The position numbers and the translations under genes were made by a program. A stretch of DNA of 64,000 nucleotides, taken from positions 10,788,001 through 10,852,000 of the forward strand of contig OZ231126.1 in NCBI GenBank assembly GCA_965153355.1. Reading direction: 5' to 3'. This DNA is from Flaccisagitta enflata (Eukaryota). The stretch's first letter is position 1. Each line of letters opens with the position of its first letter. Shown piece after piece: positions 19,342 through 20,537 of the stretch. The notes beneath the pieces were generated by a model. The model was given only the letters and a program-made list of their open reading frames with translations. It was not told the DNA's origin and searched no databases.

Positions 19342-19497
19342 TTAATCATTCTTGGACGCTGCGCTCCTTCCGATCTCCGCGAACTCGATTTCGAGACGCT
19401 GCGCCTCCTCGGCGTTTTTGCGGTAGGCCTTTGCCTTTTGTCCGCCGGCGGTCGCCGTTCCCGCTCCATCTCGGTAAACGAGATTCCGCCATTTTTG
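19342..19497 (-). CDS. Gene B terminal exon: end of Myb/SANT-like domain plus helical tail
   Basis: Acceptor (T)10CATAG|; phase 0; QKWRNLVYRDGAGTATAGGQKAKAYRKNAEEAQRLEIEFAEIGRSAASKND*. Confidence 0.75.
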   Translation of the reverse strand, partial: QKWRNLVYRDGAGTATAGGQKAKAYRKNAEEAQRLEIEFAEIGRSAASKND

Positions 19498-19616
19498 CTA
19501 TGAAAAAAAAAAGATGTGTAACTGATCCTCTTCATTGATCTACAATGTCATGACAAGTCAAGTTATGGCTAACATAGGCGTCTTGTTGAAAAGAATGTAG
19601 GATTGAGTGAACTAAT

Positions 19617-19715
<99 letters not shown>

Positions 19716-19783
19716 ACAGATAGACAGACAGAGAGGAAGGTTTTATTTCGCCGAACGGCCCTAAATCTTTGTCATCGTTTTAC

Positions 19784-19989
19784 CTTAATGGAATCCGCGC
19801 TGAACGGCTTCCGTCCGGGGGCCATTCTCGCGTTGAGCGCATCGGCCAGGGCTGTCGCAATGGCCTCCGTCTCTCCTTTCATCAACTCGCGATGCTCCAT
19901 CAACTCGCGATGCTCCATCTCCTTCTGGGCGTCCTTGGCCGCACGTTCCTCCCACCATTTGAAATTCACTTTCGAAGATATTCTACACG
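19784..19989 (-). CDS. Gene B exon: Myb/SANT(MADF)-like domain core
   Basis: ataacag|...AAG|gtaaaa; CRISSKVNFKWWEERAAKDAQKEMEHRELMEHRELMKGETEAIATALADALNARMAPGRKPFSADSIK; contains an in-frame 18-bp duplication; 5' boundary less certain. Confidence 0.7.
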
Positions 19990-20035
19990 CTGTTATGAAA
20001 TGGAAGCGAGTAAATTGTAACAGTAACCAGACAAC

Positions 20036-20080
20036 CGACGATTTCCAATGACGCGTGATATTTAGTTTGCAGCAAATGAC
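20036..20080 (-). CDS. Gene B optional 45-bp exon
   Basis: T-rich acceptor ...TTTTAATATGGCAG|; phase 1->1; HLLQTKYHASLEIV; weak donor G|gttgtc followed by a 46-nt intron. Confidence 0.4.
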
Positions 20081-20300
20081 CTGCCATATTAAAAGAAAAA
20101 AAAGATCTTTCAGTTACACGGTAAAATGCTCTTCTCTTTCTCACGAGATTCTACAATCCCCACGAAAATCACCCTCGAATCAATTGCGCTCGCATAAAAA
20201 AATAAAATCTCTTCATTGATTATTGAAGCTTCCTGAGAAAAAATTCCAAATACTGTCAATAAAAAAACGTTTCTTAATGCTTTAAGTGAGGATAACTTAC

Positions 20301-20537
20301 GACTGGTCTCGGCGGGGGGAGCAAAAACTCCGACCACGTCGTCTTCGTTGCTGGCGTGGTTGTTGTTGTTGTTGTTGTTGTTGCCGGTGTTTCCGGACGT
20401 CGCGCCTCGTCCTCTTCCTCTTCCTCGGCCTCGAGAGCCGCGACCGCCGCGACCGCCTCCACGTCCACTCGCCATCGGCGCCGAAGTCGGCGCCTCAGAA
20501 TCGGCATCGGCGCCAAATAGAAGCGAAAGGTTATAAT
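20301..20537 (-). CDS. Gene B exon with RG/RGG-rich tract and poly-Asn
   Basis: ttttgttgtttag|...C|gtaagt; phase 1->1; YNLSLLFGADADSEAPTSAPMASGRGGGRGGRGSRGRGRGRGRGATSGNTGN8HASNEDDVVGVFAPPAETS; a possible start Met at 20475. Confidence 0.7.

What the first reader, a model, noticed from the sequence alone, without database searches (positions are those of the whole stretch)
19342..20537. Spliced gene B: RG/RGG tract plus a Myb/SANT(MADF)-like domain completed only across an intron
Seen: joining AAG|gt (19784) to ag|CAA (19497) yields IATALADALNARMAPGRKPFSADSIK-QKWRNLVY. There is an upstream RG-rich exon, an in-frame 18-bp duplication, a TAA and a downstream AATAAA. Established: Myb/SANT-like (MADF, trihelix-type) domains end in IAxxLN...xxxxxKxKWxNL and occur in transcription factors and in PIF/Harbinger accessory proteins. 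Inference: a DNA-binding protein with a possible RNA-binding RG region, perhaps domesticated from a transposon; no Harbinger transposase is visible in this window.
Basis: partly seen in the sequence, partly recalled or inferred. Interest (0 to 1): 0.72.

Follow-up and report, generated by a model that had tools for sequence, protein, structure and literature searches.

The report
Fast-evolving Myb/SANT-like gene family member
The flagged stretch is not a gene of its own but the last three exons of a 16-exon gene for a roughly 700-residue protein that ends in a probable DNA-binding domain and belongs to a much-duplicated, fast-changing gene family for which no outside relatives turned up.

Summary
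The 19784/19497 intron is real. Both splice sites are kept in all four copies of these exons in the genome. Intron-free database proteins of a paralogue span the equivalent junction (8 of 15 listed cluster members). But 'gene B' is not a gene: those proteins, an open 16-exon frame (30599-19342, minus, about 698 aa, all GT-AG) and intronless processed copies show it is the 3' end of one gene: low-complexity N-terminus, coiled coil, conserved helical core, RG tract, C-terminal domain. The Myb/SANT reading is likely but unproven. There is no Pfam or fold hit for this subfamily, only language-model leads (0.82-0.86) and a weak chain to sister subfamilies that hit Myb_DNA-bind_4 below cut-off, helped by a shared intron position. 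No Harbinger transposase exon (534 kb scanned) and no terminal inverted repeats were found, so Harbinger domestication is unsupported. The domain changes at about the synonymous rate while the core is constrained. The family has expanded by segmental, tandem and retro-duplication. Best reading: a lineage-restricted, dimerising chromatin or DNA-binding regulator. Expression of the window copy itself is untested.

The parts
19342..30599 (-). Whole gene model: 16 exons, 2097-nt frame, 698 aa (701 aa with the alternative exon-4 donor at 28965), all introns GT-AG, no internal stop
   Evidence: co-linear with intron-free ENA proteins and intronless C8 copies
30452..30599 (-). Exon 1, first ATG at 30599 (least certain end of the model)
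   Evidence: frame and GT donor; resemblance to the 5' end of the C8 processed copies by eye; 71% to copy B, no hit in copy A
29735..29924 (-). Exon 2, acidic/Ala-rich
29217..29305 (-). Exon 3
28974..29011 (-). Exon 4 (donor GTCAGT after 28974; the alternative donor after 28965 is lost in copies A and B)
28402..28530 (-). Exon 5
27920..28174 (-). Exon 6, Asn-rich low complexity
26576..26698 (-). Exon 7, heptad coiled coil followed by a basic patch (about aa 284-324)
   Evidence: heptad pattern read from the sequence; 22 of 41 aa identical to the C8 copies
25054..26121 (-). Exons 8-12 (26121-26002, 25886-25827, 25608-25467, 25349-25281, 25098-25054): conserved, probably helical core of no known family
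   Evidence: 84 of 131 aa identical to the C8 copies; codon position 2 differs at 7 of 104 sites from copy B in exons 8-10; no Pfam hit above cut-off in the C8 homologue
24736..24825 (-). Exon 13, spliced over a 4198-nt intron to the RG exon
   Evidence: the equivalent junction is present in 12 of 15 listed ENA cluster members
20950..21872 (+). Decayed retroelement fragment inside intron 13, antisense; shared by copies A and B; not part of the protein
   Evidence: 51 matches among 81 candidates genome-wide; one relative carries RVT_1, E 1.9e-25
20301..20537 (-). Exon 14: RG/RGG tract and Asn run (internal exon, phase 1 on both sides)
19784..19989 (-). Exon 15: first two helices of the Myb/SANT-like domain, with the private 18-bp duplication (about 19919-19884)
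19498..19783 (-). Intron 15, 286 nt, phase 0, with a (TC)n tract; same position and phase as in the distant paralogue D
19342..19497 (-). Exon 16: third helix (K-W-x-N-L), further helices, TAA
19280..19295 (-). Two AATAAA hexamers (19295-19290, 19285-19280), candidate poly(A) signal
   Evidence: use not tested

Best explanation
A host gene of 16 exons encodes a roughly 698-aa nuclear protein. It probably dimerises through its coiled coil, docks on partner proteins through the conserved helical core, and binds DNA or chromatin through a divergent C-terminal Myb/SANT (trihelix/MADF-type) domain whose third helix is supplied by the last exon; the RG tract next to it may add low-specificity nucleic-acid binding. 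The family is restricted to this lineage as far as the searches reach and turns over quickly: core constrained, Myb-like domain changing at about the synonymous rate, copies made by segmental, tandem and retro-duplication. Shown: gene structure, splicing in a paralogue, family expansion, rate contrast. Inferred: Myb/SANT fold, DNA binding, dimerisation, nuclear role.
For: One open frame over 16 GT-AG exons; 0 of 20,000 random nearby GT/AG choices give it. Intron-free ENA proteins map to 8 genomic blocks of copy B and join upstream exons to the RG exon and the domain. Intronless C8 copies are co-linear with the model. The last 12 exons of copy B are open, 478 aa. Atlas features: 5 of the 6 listed rows with a Pfam family are Myb_DNA-bind_3/4 or MADF (0.82-0.86), and 9 of the 10 best family hits share a clan. 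A sister subfamily hits Myb_DNA-bind_4 at E 0.008-0.12 (5 of 18; 1 of 7). A profile of the sister subfamilies scores the ENA domain at 14.7 bits, above all 2000 shuffles. Paralogue D has introns at the same two positions and phases around the domain. The predicted helix layout fits three helices plus extra helices. Codon position 2 differs at 43 of 112 sites in the domain against 7 of 104 in the core, with equal 4-fold rates, 8 of 23 and 13 of 45.
Against: No Myb/MADF Pfam hit at E up to 10 for the spliced paralogue or any of 19 alignment members. All sister-subfamily hits are below the cut-off of 27 bits. The link from the window domain to the sisters is weak (4.8 bits, 31 of 2000 shuffles as high; hhalign probability 0.1). 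Atlas scores under 0.9 are leads only. The helix-2 Trp of the sister subfamilies is Leu here. The near-neutral rate in the domain could mean decay rather than diversification, and copy A (frameshift), copy C (truncated) and the C8 copies (stops) are broken. The transcript-type evidence is for a paralogue (91 of 115 aa to copy B, 54 of 112 to the window).
Confidence: 0.6

Rival explanations
1. The domain came from the Myb-like accessory gene of a PIF/Harbinger transposon and was domesticated and fused to a host coiled-coil gene long ago. This is an origin story that is compatible with the best explanation.
For: Harbinger Myb-like proteins are highly divergent and have been domesticated repeatedly (PMC9392472 and PMC9710019, passages read). 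The genome holds Harbinger-type DDE_Tnp_4 exons at 5 loci.
Against: None of the 5 transposase loci lies near a family member. A profile of the spliced domain finds nothing within 10 kb of them (best E 0.95; combined profile E 4). No transposase exon in 534 kb around family members (best E 1.2). No TIR or TSD.
Confidence: 0.2
2. The C-terminal domain is a helical protein-interaction module that only resembles Myb/SANT, or a SANT-type domain that has lost DNA binding.
For: No Pfam, PDB-sequence or fold match; the model is low-confidence (mean pLDDT 56, domain 58-71); the helix-2 aromatic is missing.
Against: Spacing of W, LN and K-W-x-N-L; Myb-clan Atlas neighbours only after splicing; the sister subfamily hits Myb_DNA-bind_4; basic third helix.
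Confidence: 0.2
3. The window copy is a recent duplicate under relaxed selection or on its way to becoming a pseudogene, and the working gene is another paralogue.
For: Private 18-bp duplication in helix 1; loss of the segment that copy B encodes in extra exons inside the RG region; broken siblings A, C and C8; no intron-free database protein of the window type was found.
Against: The frame is open over 698 aa with all 15 introns canonical. All length differences from copy A in exons 2-15 are multiples of 3. An upstream AG at 20537 keeps the frame where copy B's acceptor is lost.
Confidence: 0.15
4. The 12-14 kb block is itself a mobile element (a non-autonomous DNA transposon carrying its accessory gene).
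For: Copies lie on different chromosomes, and homology to copy B ends about 300 bp outside the gene on either side.
Against: Only 4 intron-bearing copies of these exons; no TIR or direct repeat at the ends in three copies; 15 introns; an old retroelement fragment inside is shared by three copies.
Confidence: 0.05

Closest known systems
Myb/SANT-like DNA-binding domain families (Pfam Myb_DNA-bind_4 PF13837, Myb_DNA-bind_3 PF12776, MADF PF10545)
   Same: Three-helix pattern ending in LN...K-W-x-N-L; nearest named Atlas clusters; weak PF13837 hits in a sister subfamily.
   Different: No Pfam hit for this subfamily. The helix-2 Trp is replaced. The domain sits at the C-terminus behind a coiled coil and a core of no known family, whereas in many MADF and Harbinger proteins it is N-terminal (recalled).
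Harbinger-derived MSANTD1-4 and NAIF1 (vertebrates); insect PIF MADF genes
   Same: Host genes with one divergent Myb-like trihelix domain; MSANTD2 also has a processed pseudogene (PMC9392472, passages read).
   Different: Those are single-copy, 3-4 exons, 275-559 aa and align to transposon Myb-like proteins at E below 1e-5 (PMC9392472); the insect ones often lie beside a transposase (PMC9710019). Here: 16 exons, dozens of copies, near-neutral change in the domain, no transposon relative or transposase found.
Drosophila MADF-BESS family, including Hmr (recalled, not looked up)
   Same: Lineage-expanded, fast-evolving Myb-like chromatin regulators with a separate interaction domain.
   Different: No BESS domain and no sequence similarity was found; the likeness is an analogy only.

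Membership tests
Myb/SANT-like (MADF/trihelix) domain | Profile match above the Pfam gathering score | tested here: not met
   No Myb/MADF family at E up to 10 for the spliced paralogue or the exons; sister subfamily 13.3-17 bits against a cut-off of 27. The spliced window peptide itself was not scanned; the spliced paralogue stood in for it.
Myb/SANT-like (MADF/trihelix) domain | Three-helix helix-turn-helix fold | tested here: inconclusive
   AlphaFold2 model of the paralogue: helices 74-93, 98-117, 127-135, then 137-158, 160-179, domain pLDDT 58-71; Foldseek no E up to 0.001; VIA best Z 7.0 to unrelated helical proteins.
Myb/SANT-like (MADF/trihelix) domain | Bulky aromatic residue in each helix (PMC9392472, passages) | tested here: inconclusive
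   Trp or Phe before helix 1 and Trp in helix 3 are kept in all 4 copies; the helix-2 position is Leu here and Trp in the sister subfamilies, which in turn have Leu in helix 3.
Myb/SANT-like (MADF/trihelix) domain | DNA binding | not testable with these tools
   Needs EMSA, SELEX or CUT&RUN.
PIF/Harbinger transposon | DDE transposase gene next to the Myb-like gene | tested here: not met
   5 DDE_Tnp_4 matches among 14 candidates, none near family loci; local profile scan of 534 kb, best E 1.2. Exon-wise searches can miss a very diverged or many-intron transposase.
PIF/Harbinger transposon | Terminal inverted repeats with a 3-bp target duplication | tested here: not met
   Only 11-25 nt A/T-rich chance matches between the flanks of the window, A and B copies; copy C was not tested.
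Domesticated Harbinger Myb-like gene (MSANTD type) | Significant similarity to, and nesting among, transposon Myb-like proteins | tested here: inconclusive
   No similar gene within 10 kb of the 5 transposase loci; no Repbase-type set was available for a tree.
RGG/RG-motif RNA-binding proteins | Clustered RG/RGG repeats | tested here: met
   8 RG and 2 RGG in exon 14; RG-rich in copy B and the ENA proteins; K/A/T-rich instead in the C8 and D types.
RGG/RG-motif RNA-binding proteins | RNA binding or arginine methylation | not testable with these tools
   Needs CLIP or mass spectrometry.

The most novel reading that the evidence does not exclude
A lineage-specific genome-surveillance system: a constant coiled-coil and core module recruits a repressor, while a Myb/SANT-like head is diversified copy by copy to follow this genome's abundant satellites and retroelements, as KRAB- or ZAD-zinc-finger proteins do elsewhere (recalled analogy). 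Exons would be refreshed from cDNA copies, which would explain why even synonymous exon sites have diverged 2-3 times more than the introns between the same paralogues.
Probability: 0.12. Interest if true: 0.75.

Novelty: new variant of a known kind. Interest (0 to 1): 0.4.

Why it matters
It corrects the annotation: one 16-exon gene, not genes A and B. It also exposes a gene family invisible to Pfam, with at least three subfamilies and dozens of copies made by three duplication routes. If the head is a DNA-binding domain under diversification, the family is a candidate repeat-binding regulator of this lineage. The excess divergence of exons over introns is a testable oddity. The parts themselves (Myb/SANT-like domain, RG tract, retrocopies) are of known kinds.

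Tried and rejected
RNA reads: no RNA holder was listed, only one unindexed raw-read run, and no reads were laid, so expression and splicing of the window copy stay open. Pfam on single exons and on the spliced paralogue: only low-complexity noise. PDB sequence searches: nothing under E 0.06. AlphaFold2 on exon 15 alone gave one long helix, uninformative. Fold searches listed no Myb/SANT chain. Searches for outside relatives: the profile of exon 15 against 1.84 billion representatives gave 4 true relatives among 6 hits; word-based searches for longer forms and for the core gave none (both scored only the top 8000 candidates); JGI metagenome scans gave none. The core was never run through the most sensitive search, so 'no outside relative' is weak for it. 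Own-genome searches with PF13873 and PF13837 did not return any family locus. An upstream acceptor in intron 14 (near 20070) is conserved in all 4 copies but leads to a stop in the frame set by exon 14; it was rejected as the main path because the ENA proteins use the 19989 acceptor. Frame +1 of exon 16 shows a slightly better synonymous signal but has a stop in copy C and disagrees with the ENA proteins. CpG decay as the cause of exon divergence was rejected. Earlier findings of the scan: nothing. Literature searches listed no paper on such a family; most subscription papers are not in that library.

Full report
Observation. The junction is as described: the exon ends at 19784 (AAG|GTAAAACG), the next begins at 19497 (TTTCATAG|CAA), and the 286-nt phase-0 intron, once removed, leaves an open frame to TAA at 19344-19342. 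The RG-rich exon (8 RG, 2 RGG), the 18-bp duplication and two AATAAA hexamers (19295, 19285) are present. The genome holds four copies of these exons: the window, A (C1:10.745 Mb), B (C6:49.177 Mb) and C (C1:11.159 Mb) (4 of 4 and 4 of 5 candidates). Both splice sites are identical in all four, while the two exons are only 59-95% identical. The 18-bp duplication is private to the window.

Splicing evidence. No reads could be laid on the window copy. A profile search with exon 15 found a 256-aa protein without introns (P0003), which led to an ENA cluster of 21 proteins. Of the 15 listed, 8 read across the equivalent of the 19784/19497 junction; the other 7 end before it and none reads into the intron. 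P0003 itself shifts frame just before the junction, and P0010 and P0025 shift earlier. The domain of these proteins is 91 of 115 identical to copy B and 54 of 112 to the window, so this is evidence for a paralogue. The tools do not say whether these proteins come from RNA or from processed DNA copies; either records splicing.

Gene B is not a gene. The same proteins run upstream from the RG exon into exons 4-5 kb away and map to 8 genomic blocks in copy B. Following conserved GT-AG sites gives 16 exons from ATG 30599 to TAA 19342 with no internal stop. The exon-4 donor conserved in A and B is at 28974, which gives 698 aa. Of 20,000 random GT/AG choices within 30 nt, none gave an unbroken frame; the model was hand-guided by paralogues, so this shows only that such a chain is rare. 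The last 12 exons of copy B are also open (478 aa). An exon-8 search gave 17 of 17 candidates: the window, A, B and 14 intronless copies in a tandem array at C8:13.13-13.26 Mb. These are co-linear with the model, with no intron-sized insert at any of the 15 junctions; by my reading 9 junctions align clearly on both sides and 6 are too diverged to judge. All 12 copies matched by the pattern carry the same two stops (10 kb of the array was not fetched), and the unit abuts a DUF5641-bearing retrotransposon fragment. This is a processed pseudogene, later amplified in units of about 6.5 kb.

Anatomy. Low-complexity N-terminus (exons 1-6); heptad coiled coil with a basic patch (exon 7); a core of no known family (exons 8-12; 84 of 131 identical to the C8 copies); RG tract (exon 14); C-terminal domain (exons 15-16; 28 of 96 identical to C8). 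The RG tract is replaced by a K/A/T-rich stretch in the C8 and D types. Copy A has a 1-nt frameshift just after the last acceptor, and copy C lacks detectable upstream exons.

Is the domain Myb/SANT? Against: no Myb or MADF Pfam hit for the spliced paralogue or any of 19 alignment members, no PDB sequence hit, a low-confidence model (mean pLDDT 56) and no fold match. For: Atlas features of the spliced domain list Myb_DNA-bind_3/4 and MADF clusters in 5 of 6 family-bearing rows at 0.82-0.86, below the tool's 0.9 line, while exon 15 alone lists none. The C8-type domain leads to an intron-bearing paralogue D (C8:27.417 Mb, E 8e-8) and to a third, intronless subfamily, with 49 of 63 matches at E below 1e-13 on C9, C4 and C7. 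That subfamily hits Myb_DNA-bind_4 in 5 of 18 and 1 of 7 sequences scanned (E 0.008-0.12, below cut-off) and matches the C8/D type at hhalign 94%, E 2e-8. The link to the window type is weaker. The combined sister profile scores the ENA domain above all 2000 shuffles, B at 10, the window at 31 and C at 97 of 2000; hhalign finds nothing. Gene structure adds support: D has a phase-1 intron before the domain and a phase-0 intron just before x-K-x-x-N-L, as the window does. I put a Myb/SANT-like ancestry at about 0.75 and retained DNA binding lower.

Transposon origin. The genome has 5 Harbinger-type transposase exons among 14 candidates. None is near a family member and none has a family-like neighbour within 10 kb. 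A profile of them finds nothing in 534 kb around family members (best E 1.2). The duplicated block (12-14 kb) has no TIR or direct repeat in three copies. Ancient domestication stays possible, because Harbinger Myb-like proteins diverge strongly (PMC9392472 and PMC9710019; I read search passages of both, not the whole texts or supplements), but nothing here shows it.

Evolution. Between the window and B, codon position 2 differs at 43 of 112 sites in the domain and 7 of 104 in core exons 8-10 (p 1.6e-8), while 4-fold sites differ alike (8 of 23 and 13 of 45). The core is constrained. The domain changes at about the synonymous rate yet keeps its frame and several hydrophobic positions, which fits either relaxed or diversifying selection; these counts cannot separate the two. 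Unexplained: exon 4-fold sites (26 of 74) have diverged more than a dead retroelement in intron 13 (113 of 912) or introns 14-15 (67 of 380), also outside CpG context (11 of 35 against 83 of 747).

Mechanism and verdict. Most likely (0.6) this is a dimerising nuclear regulator that reaches DNA or chromatin through a fast-changing Myb/SANT-like head and acts through a constant core. Binding, dimerisation and location are inferred. No outside relative was found, with weak sensitivity for the core, and four literature searches listed nothing on such a family. It is a new variant of a known kind, of moderate interest.

Noticed in passing
window exons 7-16 versus C6 copy (L012, L013): Synonymous exon sites are 2-3 times more diverged than introns and a dead retroelement between the same two paralogues; CpG context does not explain it. 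Exon-only conversion from cDNA is one untested idea.
   Followed up: partly
G000:C8:13.128-13.264 Mb (L058-L071, L072-L087): Tandem array of at least 14 intronless pseudogene copies of a paralogue, unit about 6.5 kb, abutting a DUF5641-bearing retrotransposon fragment, with two shared stops; no intron-bearing parent close to it was found.
   Followed up: partly
G000:C9:0.6-2.2 Mb, C4:83.75 Mb, C7:70.45 Mb (L099-L113, L140-L169): Large intronless tandem subfamily with low-complexity region, coiled coil and the most canonical Myb/SANT-like domain of the family; one open frame of 691 aa, many broken. Its N-terminal part shows no significant similarity to the window protein.
   Followed up: partly
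G000:C8:27.417 Mb (L098): Intron-bearing paralogue D with the same intron positions around the domain; its upstream exons were not found in 30 kb.
   Followed up: partly
window 20950-21872 (+), intron 13: Decayed fragment of a high-copy reverse-transcriptase element, shared by the window, A and B copies; it mimics an antisense gene.
   Followed up: yes
window 18400-19150 (+): GC-richer, stop-ridden stretch past the 3' end with a Cys/His pattern and dispersed genomic matches; probably another retroelement remnant, not tested as such.
   Followed up: partly
window about 20070 (minus), intron 14: An acceptor-like site and about 90 nt conserved at 85-97% in all four copies; it leads to a stop in the exon-14 frame and may be a poison-type alternative acceptor.
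   Followed up: no
window 20537-20510 versus L012:8220-8252: Acceptor turnover: copy B's acceptor AG is TG in the window and copy A, where an in-frame AG further upstream serves instead.
   Followed up: partly
L012:8460-9750: Copy B has two extra introns and a 49-nt micro-exon inside the RG region, confirmed by the ENA proteins; the window copy lacks that segment in frame.
   Followed up: yes
G000:C5:3188389-3188520 (L127): An exon over the Myb_DNA-bind_4 cut-off (33.7 bits), with no detected similarity to this family.
   Followed up: no
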